Below are positions 21,001 through 24,000 of a stretch of 64,000 nucleotides of DNA, one piece after another (position 1 is the stretch's first letter; each line of letters begins with the position of its first letter). The stretch is taken from the NCBI RefSeq assembly GCF_054482595.1, contig NZ_CM137008.1; one strand, 5' to 3'. A program made the position numbers.

Positions 21001-24000
21001 CATGTGCGGATTAAATCCCGCGACCCGCACCAGCATCCGGCGATTCTGTTTAACTACATGTCGCACGAGCAGGACTGGCAGGAGTTCCGCGACGCAATTC
21101 GCATCACCCGCGAGATCATGCATCAACCCGCGCTGGATCAGTATCGTGGCCGCGAAATCAGCCCCGGCACGGAATGTCAGACGGATGAACAGCTCGATGA
21201 GTTCGTGCGTAACCACGCCGAAACCGCCTTCCATCCGTGCGGTACCTGCAAAATGGGTTACGACGAGATGTCCGTGGTTGACGGCGAAGGCCGCGTACAC
21301 GGGTTAGAAGGCCTGCGTGTGGTGGATGCGTCGATTATGCCGCAGATTATCACCGGGAATTTGAACGCCACGACAATTATGATTGGCGAGAAAATAGCGG
21401 ATATGATTCGTGGACAGGAAGCGCTGCCGAGGAGCACGGCGGGATATTTTGTGGCAAATGGGATGCCGGTGAGAGCGAAAAAAATGAGTCGTGATTTGAA
21501 CTGACTCAGGAACCGATCAGATTGAGAGTTACCGTTCCAGGTATGGGGACAGAATCGTTATATAAAACATAGGGGTAACTCTCATGCTTCATAGTGACAA
21601 CCTCGCCAGCAAATTCTAAGCTGACTCGTTCAATCTCGCTGATGAAGGTGCTATGAATGCACTGATAAACCGCAGGTGAAATGCCACTCAGCTTAAGAAT
21701 TACGCCGCTAGTGTTCCTGGCTATGGTGACTTGTTCACTCCCGCTCACGGTTAGCATATACGAAAAGGGTTCTTGTAACGAGGACAAAAATAAGTCAGAC
21801 CAAAACAACGTGGAGCTTTAAACACAATTCGTATAATTTATTAACAGTGATTTATTTTTACTCTTCTTTAATTAATCATCATGCTTAAATATTTTTTAGC
21901 ACAAGATTATCGCTTCGCTAACATTTTAGTTTACATTGATTTCCAATTGATAATAAAAAGTTGTTAATAAGTTTATGCGAAAAATAAAAATTGTTGAAAT
22001 ACTCTCCAGCAAATGAATCAAAAATAAACAAATTAATATTTACAAAAAGCAAAAAACTATTTAAGAGAACATCTTTAATTTATTAGCAGAACCCATCAAT
22101 AATGATTTACTTACGACTAAAAAATATCTTACAACAATGTGTTATTGTAAATTAACGGGAATGATATTAAATTTTTATTTTCTACACCACAACTTCATTG
22201 AACGACAAAATGCATATAAAATCAATAAGATAAATAATAAAGACAACCTCATAAGAAATAACGTCAAATATCTCAAAACTACTAAACATCACTAAAACAT
22301 TAGACGTAACACACATCCCCCACGCCCTGTAATTCATAGCTTTTATATTTATTTTTTCACATCAATGTAGATAAAAACACGCATTAAAAATGGCTTGTAG
22401 AAAAGCAGCACAATAAATAGTTCATATTTAGTCTATTGCGTAGAACTACTATTCAAAAAATCTTATTAATGAGATAATGAGATTACATCGATAACGTTCT
22501 GATTGCAGGCATACTTATCTGGGTGTGCCTCTCTTTTTTACAACTGTACACGGTGGCGTATGACGAGAAAATATCTCACACAGGATGAAGTCTACAGGCT
22601 GATGGATGCAGCCCAGAGCATGTCCTTTCCTGAAAGAAATCGCTGTCTAATTATGATGGCTTTCATTCACGGTTTTAGGGCCAGTGAACTTCTTGATTTA
22701 CGTTTATCCGATATTGATGCATCAGGAAAACAACTTAATATTCGGCGGATTAAAAATGGTTTCTCGACAACACATCCTCTTCTTCCTGATGAATATAATT
22801 TGATCAAGTTGTGGCTTAAGCAGAGGAAGTTAATTGAAAACGGAGTTGAAGGAGACTGGCTTTTTCTCTCCCGGAAACGCCGCCCTATCAGCAGACAACA
22901 TTTTTTTTCTATCATTCGTGAGGCTGGAAGACGTGCAGGATTAGCTGTAAAAGCACATCCTCATATGTTACGTCATGCCTGTGGTTTTGCTCTGGCTGAC
23001 AATGGTGTCGATACCCGACTACTTCAGGATTATCTGGGTCATCGAAATATCCAGCATACTGTCAGATACACAGCCAGTAATGCTGCTCGATTTAAAGGGG
23101 TGTGGAAAAAAAAGCCTCGTTAAAACAGTACCTTCTGATTCAAAATGTCAGATTCCTACGTTTTCCTCAATTCTTCCATAAAAAAACAGCCCATTCAATT
23201 CAATAAAACACATAACATGTTGATATTTCTCGCTAAAGTAAAATAACCCCATGATTTGAAATGATTAACCGCCAAGGTCATACCAGTGATTAACTTTCAC
23301 TCATGTTGTTAACATGCAACCAAATTAAAAACAATAAAAATCAAACAAATTAGATTTATATTCCAAGAAAATTAAATATTCAGGCAATTAAACCAAACCT
23401 GACATTTTGAATCAAAATGTCAGGTTTGGTAGCAATGGCGTGGACGAGTCTGAATGAAGAAGCCTCTGGTTATTATCAGTGCCTGTCAGTTCACCAGGCT
23501 GGCACTGGAGTCTCTCATCCCAACGGACAGGTATCTCGTGCGGGTGTACAGCAACGTCACTACAGAGGTTGAATTCATTTTAAAGACCTCCTGTGGCTAC
23601 CTGTTAGCTGATATCCCTTCGCTTCCTTCGGGGGAGTTGGTTCTTCTGGCTTGTCTTGTCCGCTTGCGGAGTGATGCCGGGCAATGGCAGGTCTGCCTGA
23701 CCGGTGACTCCGACTGGTTCGATAATGCTCCTGCTGCAAGTCTGTACTATGGCTTCCCACGCATAAGCACCCTGCTGACAGCGAGTCGTTATCAGAATCA
23801 AATTATCCGCTGGTTACTACGTCCTTTGCCCGGCGATATGAGTGATTTCTGGCTGCTGACTGCACGGGAGTTGAGCGTGCTTAAGATTCTGATGCAGGGC
23901 ATGAGTTTCAGTGAGATTGCCCGTTATGAACAACGCAGTTCAAAGACCCTGCATGCGATTGCCACACGGGCATTAATGAAACTTGGACTGGGAACTCTGA

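What the first reader, a model, noticed from the sequence alone, without database searches (positions are those of the whole stretch)
21505..22559. AT-rich, gene-poor leader upstream of the recombinase
After betA the sequence turns strongly A/T-rich for roughly 700 bp (about 21810-22500), with many A- and T-tracts and no convincing ORF. Regions like this often hold H-NS-silenced promoters and mark the edges of horizontally acquired DNA. The only ORF is a 100-aa minus-strand frame (21506-21808) convergent on betA, with no recognisable motif.
Basis: seen in the sequence. Interest (0 to 1): 0.4.

Follow-up and report, generated by a model that had tools for sequence, protein, structure and literature searches.

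The report
AT-rich leader of the fimX invertase
This is the non-coding, very AT-rich upstream control region of the fimX (ipbA) DNA-invertase gene at the left end of a known E. coli island (PAI-X / O-island 14); it is real but an ordinary kind of feature, with some new details on conservation and a leader hairpin.

Summary
Window 21809-22500 is 25.7% GC, the most AT-rich 700 bp in the 64-kb window (49% overall). It lies inside PAI-X / O-island 14 (ipbA=fimX, hyxR, hyxA, hyxB), inserted between betA and ykgH. The true island junction is 21593/21594, about 215 bp before the AT-rich tract.

The 100-aa ORF is spurious. It straddles the core/island junction, has no family, and is broken in another lineage.

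The leader co-occurs with fimX in about 1,890 of 5,426 complete E. coli genomes and is absent from empty sites. It has three zones:
- a conserved distal block (21811-21967);
- a hypervariable centre (21968-22352) that falls into discrete haplogroups only 55-78% identical, although fimX is at least 98.6% identical;
- a near-invariant proximal block (22353-22559).

The proximal block ends in a GATAACGT box, a hairpin (22507-22530) with a T-run, a weak SD and the ATG. Two paralogous invertase modules at other loci share this cassette, with compensatory stem changes.

Published EHEC data show that fimX (Z0395) is Ler-activated, with a predicted Ler site in this leader.

Best reading: an H-NS/Ler-type silenced regulatory leader and transcriptional insulator that keeps invertase dose low. 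Modest interest.

The parts
21505..21593 (+). Core-genome 3' flank of betA, also present in K-12-type empty sites. Contains an 11-nt perfect inverted repeat at 21523-21533 / 21574-21584.
   Evidence: Alignment with the K-12-like betA-ykgH spacer. Matches in island-free genomes stop at query position 194, which is window 21593. Inverted repeat I13.
21594..27578 (+). PAI-X / O-island 14 insertion: leader, ipbA/fimX, the hyxS switch, hyxR, hyxA and hyxB. There is a 3-bp ATA ambiguity at both junctions, no long direct repeats and no adjacent tRNA.
   Evidence: Core sequence resumes at 27579 (TCCAGTATTC...).
21594..21808 (.). Left-end stub of the island with ordinary composition (45.6% GC), non-coding and single-copy. 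Haplogroup H3 carries an extra 91 bp between 21754 and 21755.
   Evidence: No annotated feature lies under it in 1,893 genomes.
21506..21808 (-). 100-aa ORF with a TTG start; spurious. Its C-terminal 29 codons lie in core DNA and its first 71 codons in island DNA.
   Evidence: It straddles the junction. No Pfam match. No minus-strand ORF of 30 aa or more at the corresponding site in H3. An exhaustive HMMER search of 1.8 billion representative proteins found only same-locus ORFs (P0121, P0122), a low-complexity repeat protein and one chimeric metagenome ORF.
21809..22500 (.). The AT-rich tract itself, 25.7% GC.
21811..21967 (.). Block A, a distal conserved AT-rich element 590-750 bp upstream of the fimX ATG. 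It contains a perfect TATAAT at 21832-21837 with a poor -35. A 28-codon ORF at 21881-21967 keeps its frame in all three haplogroups but has no SD.
   Evidence: Identity between haplogroups is 0.96 / 0.90 / 0.93, while both flanks are more diverged. At least 95% identical in 1,706 of 1,891 records. Alignment, PWM scan.
21968..22352 (.). Hypervariable, indel-rich centre. It exists as discrete haplogroups H1 (this window, O157, O145), H2 (UTI89, ST131, ATCC 11775) and H3 (FHI_NMBU_03, FY10), plus a fourth form in a cryptic-clade Escherichia. The + strand is C-rich and G-poor.
   Evidence: Between-group identity is 0.55-0.84 by sub-segment. The population distribution is bimodal: 95% or more in 784 genomes, 90-95% in 12, 60-80% in 1,094, none at 80-90%. 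C/G is 1.6-3.7 and G is 7-9%, the lowest-G 300-nt window in the 64 kb. L006 alignment.
22182..22316 (-). 44-aa hydrophobic 'hypothetical protein' annotated in H1 genomes (WP_021556524.1, ECs_0356). Probably a compositional artefact of T-rich DNA.
   Evidence: Annotated only in H1 genomes. Marked frameshifted in NCTC9088. It lies in the hypervariable centre, has no Pfam match, and is not preserved in H3.
22353..22559 (+). Block B, the promoter-proximal conserved region and 5' leader of fimX. It is nearly invariant from about 22440 to the ATG in four lineages.
   Evidence: Between-group identity is 0.94/0.89 for 22353-22452 and 0.98/0.96 for 22453-22559. Alignments.
22470..22497 (+). Candidate fimX promoter elements. 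An extended -10-like TGaGATAAT lies at 22470-22478. A GATAACGT box lies at 22490-22497 and is shared with two paralogous modules. Predicted transcription starts are about 22485 or about 22502-22505.
   Evidence: Read from the sequence. PWM scan: TAACGT/ATGAGA is conserved in all three haplogroups. Cross-module alignment. These are inferences; no TSS data were available.
22507..22539 (+). Terminator-like hairpin AGGCATACTT-ATCT-GGGTGTGCCT (22507-22530), followed by CTC and a T6 run (22534-22539). The run is T8 in H2 and H3.
   Evidence: Terminator scan. Folding energy -12.9 kcal/mol, z = -3.0. All 11 pairs are kept in fimX and the paralogue, with 3 compensatory and 4 one-sided compatible changes. 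A third module, L024, has the same element.
22552..22562 (+). Weak Shine-Dalgarno GGTGG (22552-22556), a 3-nt spacer and the fimX ATG (22560). The upstream in-frame TTG at 22503 is not the real start.
   Evidence: RefSeq places the start at the ATG. The 2-nt difference in T-run length between haplogroups breaks the TTG frame. Start codons align with the paralogue and with Salmonella STM0716.
22560..23123 (+). ipbA / fimX / hbiF, a tyrosine-type DNA invertase of 187 aa. This is the gene served by the leader.
   Evidence: Pfam PF00589, E = 7.7e-50. RefSeq annotation.
23123..23427 (.). hyxS invertible switch, given as context and lying outside the finding. Its inverted-repeat arms are 23123-23154 and 23396-23427.
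   Evidence: Inverted repeat I1. Literature: PMC6083910, PMC6458436, PMC11294581.

Best explanation
The finding covers three things: 89 bp of core DNA after betA, a 215-bp non-coding stub at the left end of PAI-X, and a roughly 750-bp AT-rich 5' regulatory region of the invertase gene fimX (ipbA).

I propose the AT-rich tract has two roles.
1. It is a platform for H-NS-family proteins. H-NS silences it and Ler or similar proteins counter-silence it, which makes fimX transcription low and conditional. The conserved distal block A and proximal block B would be the functional sites and the hypervariable centre would be a spacer.
2. It is an insulator against transcription coming from betIBA or starting spuriously in the AT-rich DNA. 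Its sense RNA is C-rich and G-poor, which suits Rho. It ends in a hairpin plus T-run 28 nt before the ATG, which would act as a leaky intrinsic terminator or attenuator. A weak SD follows.

Together these features would keep the invertase dose small, and so set how often the hyxS and fimS switches flip.

Shown here: the location, the composition, that the region is non-coding, the conservation pattern, and the structural conservation of the hairpin. Shown in the literature: dependence of fimX transcription on Ler. Inferred: H-NS binding, the promoter positions, and any termination or attenuation.
For: - Island context and junctions.
- Composition.
- Non-coding status: no Pfam match, no Rfam match at E<=1, ORFs not conserved.
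- Strict co-occurrence with fimX.
- Block A and block B diverge by 2-10% between haplogroups while the DNA between them diverges by 16-45%. The neutral yardsticks (fourfold-degenerate sites) are 4-5% in fimX and hyxR and about 15% in betA. This implies constraint on the two blocks.
- The hairpin plus T-run recurs in three independent invertase modules, with 3 compensatory and 4 one-sided compatible pair changes and no broken pair. In H3 and in Escherichia sp., a T>C change turns a U.G wobble into C-G.
- The + strand at 22000-22350 has C/G of 1.6-3.7 and the lowest G content in the 64 kb.
- In EHEC, Z0395 is ipbA. It belongs to the LEE modulon, its transcript falls in a ler deletion mutant, a Ler motif is predicted at -212 to -201, and the authors cite ChIP-chip evidence for Ler binding nearby (PMC9263587).
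- Related fim-type invertase genes also have AT-rich upstream regions, 29-42% GC. fimB has a 1.45-kb intergenic region at 36% GC.
Against: - No H-NS ChIP or hns-mutant data for this locus could be retrieved.
- H-NS, IHF, Fis, Lrp and CRP motifs are not enriched over dinucleotide shuffles.
- The A-tract phasing signal is weak: p about 0.01 at 11-11.5 bp, uncorrected for six periods tested.
- No strong sigma-70 promoter is predicted. The simple scan found fewer sites than in shuffles, and the PWM scores are modest.
- The hairpin's T-run is separated from the stem by CUC, so termination may be inefficient. It could instead be a 5' stem-loop that stabilises the mRNA.
- The paralogous modules work without a long AT-rich tract, so the tract is not intrinsic to the module.
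- The extreme divergence of the centre fits simple lack of function for that part.
Confidence: 0.6

Rival explanations
1. Mostly functionless spacer. In this reading the AT-rich tract is decaying, unconstrained island DNA whose composition reflects mutational AT bias. Only the last 80-200 bp (block B) would matter as an ordinary promoter and 5' UTR. Block A would be conserved by chance or by hitch-hiking.
For: The centre is 55-78% identical between haplogroups and has many indels, more diverged than fourfold sites in betA. Motifs are not enriched. Paralogous modules lack such a tract. In O157 Sakai the island genes are decaying.
Against: Block A is at least 95% identical in about 90% of 1,891 records, yet diverged DNA flanks it on both sides. 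A recombination tract only about 150 bp long is an unlikely explanation. The Ler-dependent expression and the predicted Ler site lie upstream of block B2 (PMC9263587). The tract is retained at nearly the same length (1,055-1,162 bp from betA stop to ATG) in all haplogroups.
Confidence: 0.2
2. The leader encodes a small product of its own. Candidates are an sRNA that ends at the 22507-22539 hairpin and T-run (a 5'-leader-derived or independent transcript), or a small protein. The small-protein candidates are the 44-aa hydrophobic ORF at 22182-22316(-), annotated as ECs_0356, and the 28-codon ORF in block A.
For: A hairpin plus U-run is the typical 3' end of an sRNA, and block B upstream of it is near-invariant. 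RefSeq annotates the 44-aa ORF in H1 genomes. The 28-codon ORF keeps its frame in three haplogroups. An array study reports that Z0397, an O-island 14 ORF, rises 2-fold in an rpoS mutant (PMC2907692).
Against: No Rfam family matches at E<=1. The 44-aa ORF lies in the hypervariable centre, is frameshifted in NCTC9088, is not annotated in H2 genomes and is absent in H3. Its hydrophobicity is what T-rich DNA would give by composition. The 28-codon ORF has no SD, and its C-terminal half changes freely (6 of the last 12 residues differ in H3). No transcript data were available.
Confidence: 0.12
3. The leader is a second invertible (phase-variable) element that FimX acts on, analogous to hyxS and fimS.
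For: Recombinase genes of this family sit next to their switches. There are weak inverted repeats in the leader, for example 21870-21899 / 22117-22146 at 70% complementarity. An 11-nt 10/11 match to the hyxS left arm lies at 22494-22504 (D20).
Against: The only strong inverted-repeat pair is hyxS itself, downstream of fimX (I1). The leader's repeats are at chance level for AT-rich DNA. By my estimate, about 0.7 such 11-mer matches are expected by chance. Whole-genome inversion detection with FimX overexpressed in UTI89 and CFT073 found only fimS, hyxS and ipuS (PMC6458436).
Confidence: 0.02
4. The 100-aa minus-strand ORF (21506-21808) is a real gene convergent on betA.
For: It is an open frame of 100 codons. 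Similar ORFs (P0121, 93 aa, 83% identity) are predicted in other E. coli.
Against: It spans the island/core junction and has a TTG start. It has no Pfam match and no relatives outside this locus among 1.8 billion representative proteins. The ORF is destroyed in H3. RefSeq does not annotate it in any genome inspected.
Confidence: 0.02

Closest known systems
PAI-X (UPEC) / O-island 14 (EHEC EDL933): the fimX(ipbA/hbiF)-hyxS-hyxRAB island between betA and ykgH
   Same: Same locus, same gene order and same insertion site. The window is 100% identical to E. coli XH990 over 21400-22700 and 98% identical to O157:H7.
   Different: None as to identity. In the papers I could read, the leader itself (junction, conserved blocks, haplogroups, hairpin) is not described. 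The primary fimX papers were not available to me.
nanC-fimB intergenic regulatory region of E. coli K-12: a 1.45-kb AT-rich region with distal NanR, NagC and IHF sites, with fimB repressed by H-NS (established knowledge; Olsen & Klemm 1994, Sohanpal et al. 2004)
   Same: A long AT-rich non-coding region upstream of a Fim-family invertase gene, which shows that such genes can use operators hundreds of bp upstream. The fimB region is 36% GC. Block A lies at -590 to -750.
   Different: No sequence homology. No NanR GGTATA repeats. The fimX tract is more AT-rich (25.7% GC). fimB has no hairpin and T-run before its start codon.
H-NS-silenced and Ler-counter-silenced AT-rich promoter regions of horizontally acquired islands, such as the LEE operons
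   Same: An AT-rich acquired regulatory region. In EDL933, fimX (Z0395) co-varies with the LEE genes and needs Ler for full expression (PMC9263587).
   Different: Direct H-NS or Ler binding to this DNA was not verifiable here. Known high-affinity H-NS motifs are not enriched.
Intrinsic (Rho-independent) terminators used as 5'-leader attenuators or insulators; also the hairpin and T-run 85 nt upstream of fimE
   Same: A stem of 10-12 bp followed by a T-run, structurally conserved with compensatory changes in three invertase modules. fimE has an analogous hairpin of -14.9 to -16.1 kcal/mol, depending on the segment folded.
   Different: A 3-nt CUC spacer separates the stem from the T-run. No alternative antiterminator structure, leader peptide or ligand-binding fold was identified. 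Termination is untested. The fimE hairpin may simply be the fimB terminator.
Horizontal regulatory switching, i.e. hypervariable intergenic alleles flanked by conserved genes in E. coli (Oren et al. 2014, PNAS; cited from my own knowledge)
   Same: Discrete leader haplogroups only 55-78% identical sit next to an invertase gene that is at least 98.6% identical.
   Different: Here the alleles are still partly alignable and sit between two conserved non-coding blocks. Whether they change regulation is unknown.

Membership tests
PAI-X / O-island 14 left arm | Inserted between betA and ykgH, and absent from K-12-type genomes | tested here: met
   The junctions are 21593/21594 and 27578/27579.
PAI-X / O-island 14 left arm | Carries ipbA/fimX, the hyxS inverted repeats, hyxR, hyxA and hyxB in that order | tested here: met
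   Annotation of the identical genome XH990. hyxS inverted repeat I1. Pfam PF00589 for the recombinase.
H-NS (xenogeneic) silenced regulatory region | AT content far above that of the host genome, in horizontally acquired DNA | tested here: met
   25.7% GC against 49% for the window and 57% for betA. Present only in genomes that carry the island.
H-NS (xenogeneic) silenced regulatory region | H-NS occupancy (ChIP) and derepression in hns mutants | not testable with these tools
   Only indirect evidence: Ler-dependent expression of Z0395 (= ipbA) and cited Ler ChIP-chip data (PMC9263587). Abe et al. 2008 is not held in the library.
H-NS (xenogeneic) silenced regulatory region | High-affinity nucleation motif (TCGATAAATT-like) or intrinsic curvature | tested here: inconclusive
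   Two sites with 2 mismatches against 2.7 expected in shuffles. A-tract phasing at 11-11.5 bp has p about 0.01, uncorrected.
Intrinsic terminator / leader attenuator | A stable G+C-containing stem-loop followed by a U-run | tested here: met
   22507-22530 has 10 pairs and folds at -12.9 kcal/mol, z = -3.0. It is followed by CUCUUUUUU. The 3-nt spacer suggests a weak terminator.
Intrinsic terminator / leader attenuator | Structure conserved through compensatory changes in relatives | tested here: met
   All 11 pairs are kept; 3 changed on both sides and 4 on one side, with none broken. A third module, L024, has the element. Only three independent lineages were available.
Intrinsic terminator / leader attenuator | Transcript 3' ends at the U-run, with regulated read-through | not testable with these tools
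   No Term-seq or 3'-RACE data were accessible.
Fim-type invertible switch (fimS/hyxS/ipuS-like) | Good inverted repeats bounding a promoter-bearing segment of about 300 bp, inverted by a Fim recombinase | tested here: not met
   The leader has only 70-78% inverted repeats, at chance level. Genome-wide screens found no further FimX-dependent inversions (PMC6458436).
Protein-coding gene (100-aa ORF 21506-21808) | Homologues beyond the locus, a domain, and an ORF conserved across lineages | tested here: not met
Any described RNA family (Rfam 15) | A covariance-model match | tested here: not met
   Over 21000-24000, both strands, at E<=1, the only match is a spurious miRNA hit on the hyxS palindrome at 23392-23430.
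nanC-fimB-type regulatory region | Sequence homology, or NanR/NagC operators | tested here: not met
   No significant blastn match. No GGTATA repeats. NagC sites were not tested.

The most novel reading that the evidence does not exclude
The leader may be a tunable dosage controller for a phase-variation invertase. A conserved 5' cassette is shared by a small clade of FimX-like modules. It consists of the GATAACGT box, a terminator-like hairpin, a T-run of variable length (T6 against T8) and a weak SD. It would attenuate fimX transcription or give rise to a leader sRNA. The discrete hypervariable haplogroups of the upstream AT-rich tract would be lineage-specific regulatory rewiring, setting different fimS and hyxS switching frequencies in B2/UPEC strains than in other E. 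coli.
Probability: 0.15. Interest if true: 0.5.

Novelty: new member of a known kind. Interest (0 to 1): 0.25.

Why it matters
FimX helps decide whether uropathogenic E. coli make type 1 pili, and it flips the hyxS switch that controls HyxR. In ST131 strains that lack FimB, it is one of the remaining recombinases acting at fimS.

How fimX itself is controlled is poorly known. If the AT-rich leader, its two conserved blocks and the leader hairpin set the invertase dose, they are the upstream inputs to two phase-variation switches. The deep leader haplogroups (UPEC/B2 against O157-like strains) would then be candidate causes of lineage differences in piliation.

Otherwise this is a routine example of AT-rich regulatory DNA in a genomic island.

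Tried and rejected
1. The 100-aa ORF as a gene. Rejected: it straddles the junction, has no domain, has no relatives among 1.8 billion proteins, and is broken in H3.
2. A known RNA family. Nothing found.
3. A second invertible element. Rejected.
4. A FimX half-site in the leader (ACGTTCTGATT at 22494-22504 against the hyxS arm ACCTTCTGATT). About 0.7 such matches are expected by chance, so I make no claim.
5. Homology to the fimB or fimE leaders, or to the upstream regions of six other invertase modules. None found beyond the roughly 75-nt cassette.
6. Enrichment of H-NS, IHF, Fis, Lrp, CRP or NanR motifs. None.
7. The species-level genome-contig scan with the single FimX protein returned only one close relative, so that capped scan was largely wasted. 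I fetched orthologues through protein search and contig look-ups instead.
8. The primary fimX papers (Bateman & Seed 2012, Bateman 2013, Hannan 2008, Bryan 2006, Xie 2006) and Abe 2008 are not held in the library. Any published fimX TSS or H-NS data could therefore not be checked.
9. P0124, a chimeric ORF linking the junction sequence to a CitMHS transporter fragment, sits on a 3.8-kb metagenome contig at 4x coverage. It is probably a mis-assembly and was not pursued.
10. Promoter prediction. The simple scan found fewer sites than in shuffles and the PWM candidates are weak, so promoter positions remain inference.
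Full report
**1. Observation**

The sequence from 21809 to 22500 is 25.7% G+C, and 27.4% up to the fimX ATG at 22560. For comparison, betA is 56.6%, fimX 42.4% and the whole 64-kb window 49.0%. The nine lowest-GC 700-bp windows in the whole window all fall here, and the next lowest elsewhere is about 31% near position 52000.

The 100-aa minus-strand ORF exists at 21506-21808 with a TTG start.

Two details need correcting. First, the roughly 300 bp directly after betA is not AT-rich (42.7% and 45.6% GC). Second, there are four further ORFs of 44-52 aa. Part of one of them (22182-22316, minus strand) is annotated by RefSeq as a 44-aa hypothetical protein in the identical genome XH990, and as ECs_0356 in O157 Sakai.

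**2. Where we are**

The window is E. coli. Over 21400-22700 it is 100% identical to strain XH990 and 98% identical to O157:H7. The annotated order is betT, betI, betB, betA, leader, ipbA (also known as HbiF and FimX), hyxR, hyxA, hyxB, ykgH.

This is pathogenicity island PAI-X of UPEC, which is O-island 14 (Z0390-Z0397) of EHEC EDL933 (PMC3789825, PMC10090168). FimX is a tyrosine invertase that flips the adjacent hyxS promoter element and also fimS (PMC6083910, PMC6458436, PMC8777976). In the window, the hyxS inverted repeats are at 23123-23154 and 23396-23427, downstream of fimX and outside the finding.

K-12-type genomes have betA, 212 bp of spacer, then ykgH. Aligning that empty site with both ends of the island puts the left junction at 21593/21594 (...CTCATGCTTCATA | GTGACAACC...). 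The right junction is at 27578/27579. There is a 3-bp ATA ambiguity and there are no long direct repeats. The AT-rich tract therefore begins 215 bp inside the island and does not mark its edge.

**3. Not protein-coding, and no known RNA**

The 100-aa ORF has its last 29 codons in core DNA and its first 71 in island DNA. The other evidence against it:
- It has no Pfam match.
- In the divergent lineage FHI_NMBU_03 there is no minus-strand ORF of 30 aa or more at that place.
- An exhaustive HMMER search of 1.84 billion representative proteins gave four hits. Two were the same locus in other E. coli, one was a low-complexity repeat protein, and one was a chimeric ORF on a low-coverage metagenome contig.

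The 215-bp island stub (21594-21808) is single-copy and unannotated in 1,893 genomes. It carries a 91-bp indel between lineages.

The annotated 44-aa ORF lies in the most variable part of the leader and is called only in one haplogroup. It is frameshifted in NCTC9088 and has no counterpart in H3.

Rfam gives nothing at E<=1 over 21000-24000 except a spurious miRNA hit on the hyxS palindrome.

**4. Distribution**

Counts among 5,426 complete E. coli genomes:
- fimX: 1,897 genomes.
- Leader centre: 1,889 genomes.
- Distal block A: 1,890 genomes.
- The full 21400-22700 query at 80% coverage or more: 1,878 genomes.

In the remaining genomes the match stops at query position 194, which is window 21593.

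**5. Internal anatomy from comparison of lineages**

I aligned nine leaders, and between-haplogroup identities divide the leader into three zones.

| Zone | Coordinates | Identity between haplogroups |
|---|---|---|
| Block A | 21811-21967 | 0.96 (H1-H2), 0.90 (H1-H3) |
| Centre | 21968-22352 | 0.78, 0.71, 0.65-0.55 and 0.84-0.75 in successive sub-segments, with many indels |
| Block B, distal part | 22353-22452 | 0.94 / 0.89 |
| Block B, proximal part | 22453-22559 | 0.98 / 0.96 |

Block A is essentially invariant from 21833 to about 21925.

The same strains differ at fourfold-degenerate sites by only 4-5% in fimX and hyxR, 0-2% in hyxA, and about 15% in betA. The centre is therefore more diverged than any neutral yardstick. 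Blocks A and B are at or below the yardsticks although diverged DNA flanks them.

Across the population the centre is bimodal. It is 95% or more identical to the window in 784 genomes, 90-95% in 12, 60-80% in 1,094, and 80-90% in none. The groups are:
- H1: this window, O157:H7, O145 and NCTC9088.
- H2: UTI89, ST131 and ATCC 11775, with N64 as a diverged member.
- H3: FHI_NMBU_03 and FY10, which carry the extra 91 bp.

A cryptic-clade Escherichia sp. contig has a fourth centre but the same block B. Block A is at least 95% identical in 1,706 of 1,891 records.

This pattern resembles the hypervariable intergenic alleles described as horizontal regulatory switching. That comparison rests on my own knowledge (Oren et al. 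2014).

**6. The promoter-proximal cassette**

The last 80 nt before the ATG read as follows:
- TGaGATAAT (22470-22478), an extended -10-like element.
- GATAACGT (22490-22497).
- The hairpin AGGCATACTT-ATCT-GGGTGTGCCT (22507-22530), at -12.9 kcal/mol with z = -3.0.
- CTC, then a T6 run (22534-22539).
- GGTGG (22552-22556), then 3 nt, then the ATG.

The T-run is T8 in H2 and H3. This breaks the upstream TTG frame at 22503 and supports the ATG at 22560 as the real start.

Two other FimX-like modules carry the same cassette with different stem sequences. Each consists of a recombinase, two regulator-like genes and an autotransporter, and each sits in a different genomic context. One is 81% identical and lies downstream of budAB-like genes (L008). 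The other is 83% identical (L024).

In the fimX/L008 alignment all 11 pairs are kept. Three changed on both sides, four changed on one side, and none are broken. L024 folds at -13.4 kcal/mol with z = -3.5.

Homology between the modules begins at about the GATAACGT box. Everything upstream is locus-specific.

fimE has a comparable hairpin and T-run 85 nt upstream of its start. fimB, Salmonella STM0716 and Edwardsiella have none.

Only about 20 nt separate the T-run from the ATG. The fimX promoter must therefore lie upstream of, or overlap, the hairpin, and fimX transcripts must pass through it.

**7. Other properties**

The + strand (sense to both betA and fimX) has C/G ratios of 1.6-3.7 and 7-9% G over 22000-22350. 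This is the lowest-G 300-nt stretch in the window, and it is the composition Rho prefers.

H-NS, IHF, Fis, Lrp, CRP and NanR motif counts do not exceed dinucleotide shuffles. There is no GATC site. A-tract phasing at 11-11.5 bp is nominally significant (p about 0.01) but was not corrected for six periods tested.

Canonical sigma-70 promoters are, if anything, under-represented: 2 found against 7.2 expected. PWM candidates conserved in all haplogroups are weak.

**8. Published functional evidence**

In EDL933 the hypothetical gene Z0395 belongs to the LEE modulon. Its transcript is greatly reduced in a ler deletion mutant. A Ler motif is predicted at -212 to -201 from the ORF, and the authors cite ChIP-chip evidence for Ler binding nearby (PMC9263587).

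That paper's supplement names Z0395 as ipbA, and its qRT-PCR primers map to window 22763-22784 and 22843-22863, inside fimX. The predicted Ler site therefore falls at about 22291-22302 or 22348-22359, depending on which start codon was used. Both positions are inside the leader.

Ler is an H-NS paralogue that relieves H-NS silencing (established knowledge). This is indirect support for nucleoid-protein control of the tract.

Genome-wide inversion screens with FimX overexpressed found only fimS, hyxS and ipuS (PMC6458436). This argues against a hidden switch in the leader.

**9. Interpretation**

The finding is the non-coding left arm of PAI-X. Its AT-rich part is the 5' regulatory region of fimX. 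My best-supported mechanism has two parts.
- **Silencing:** H-NS-family silencing and counter-silencing across the AT-rich tract, with blocks A and B as the constrained sites.
- **Insulation:** damping of incoming and own transcription by Rho-prone RNA, the terminal hairpin and T-run, and a weak SD.

Together these would give a low, conditional invertase dose.

My rough confidence in each step:

| Claim | Confidence |
|---|---|
| The region is non-coding and regulatory | about 0.9 |
| H-NS/Ler binding | about 0.65 |
| The hairpin acts as a terminator or attenuator, rather than a 5' stabiliser or an sRNA end | about 0.45 |

The rivals are a largely functionless spacer, a small RNA or small protein, a second switch, and a real 100-aa gene. 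They are weighed in the rival explanations section.

**10. Novelty and score**

The island, the gene and the general principle (AT-rich acquired DNA bound by H-NS-type proteins) are known. The following points are new details of known kinds:
- the exact junction;
- the spurious nature of the ORFs;
- the three-zone conservation pattern with discrete haplogroups;
- the structurally conserved leader hairpin cassette shared by three FimX-clade modules.

They would interest people who work on fim and hyx phase variation, but would not surprise them. Interest is 0.25.

Noticed in passing
window 23392-23430: A perfect 19-nt palindrome (ACCAAACCTGACATTTTGA / TCAAAATGTCAGGTTTGGT) sits at the right inverted repeat of the hyxS switch. 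It produces a spurious Rfam mir-759 hit.
   Followed up: no
L015 (E. coli FY10) 4673-4732: Only 58 bp separate ipbA and hyxR, against 330 bp in the window. The hyxS invertible element therefore appears to be deleted in this strain, which would lock hyxR expression.
   Followed up: no
L007 (O157:H7 Sakai), ECs_0348 to ECs_0356: The island is decayed in Sakai. ipbA and ykgH are pseudogenes, hyxR is reduced to a 168-bp fragment and hyxB is split into two ORFs. NCTC9088 has an internal stop in ipbA. Even so, ipbA (Z0395) is still reported as Ler-regulated in EDL933.
   Followed up: partly
window 21478-21504 (3' end of betA): A poly-A tract (A7 here, A6 in K-12) changes the betA C-terminus between 562 and 556 aa. 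Both forms are common among the genomes inspected, with annotated CDS lengths of 1689 and 1671 bp.
   Followed up: partly
window 23454-25163 (hyxR, hyxA): Between haplogroups, hyxA has 6-9 amino-acid differences but only 0-2 changes at 118 fourfold sites. hyxR has 6-10 amino-acid differences and 3-6 changes at about 127 fourfold sites. This suggests relaxed or diversifying selection on these regulators.
   Followed up: no
window 18330-21504 (betB, betA): Fourfold-site divergence in the core gene betA between this strain and B2 strains is about 15% (about 10% in betB). That is three to four times the value in the neighbouring island genes fimX and hyxR (4-5%). The flank and the island may have different recombination histories.
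   Followed up: partly
L008-L010, L024: Paralogous modules exist at other chromosomal sites in E. coli-like genomes. Each has a FimX-like invertase (81-83% identical) followed by two genes of about 230-250 aa; an autotransporter gene follows in L008-L010, while the L024 locus ends before one could be seen. One module lies directly downstream of budA/budB-like genes.
   Followed up: partly
L014 (metagenome contig ERZ26859170 NODE_15514): A 131-aa predicted ORF joins a CitMHS-transporter-like fragment to the sequence at the betA/PAI-X junction. The contig is 3.8 kb at about 4x coverage, so this is probably a chimeric assembly.
   Followed up: partly
window 27539-27569: A perfect 13-bp stem hairpin (CCTGCAGGCAGCA-GTA-TGCTGCCTGCAGG) lies just inside the right end of the island, after hyxB. 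It is a likely hyxB terminator.
   Followed up: no
window about 51900-52700 and about 14800-15500: These are the other low-GC stretches in the window, about 31-33% GC over 700 bp. They were not examined.
   Followed up: no
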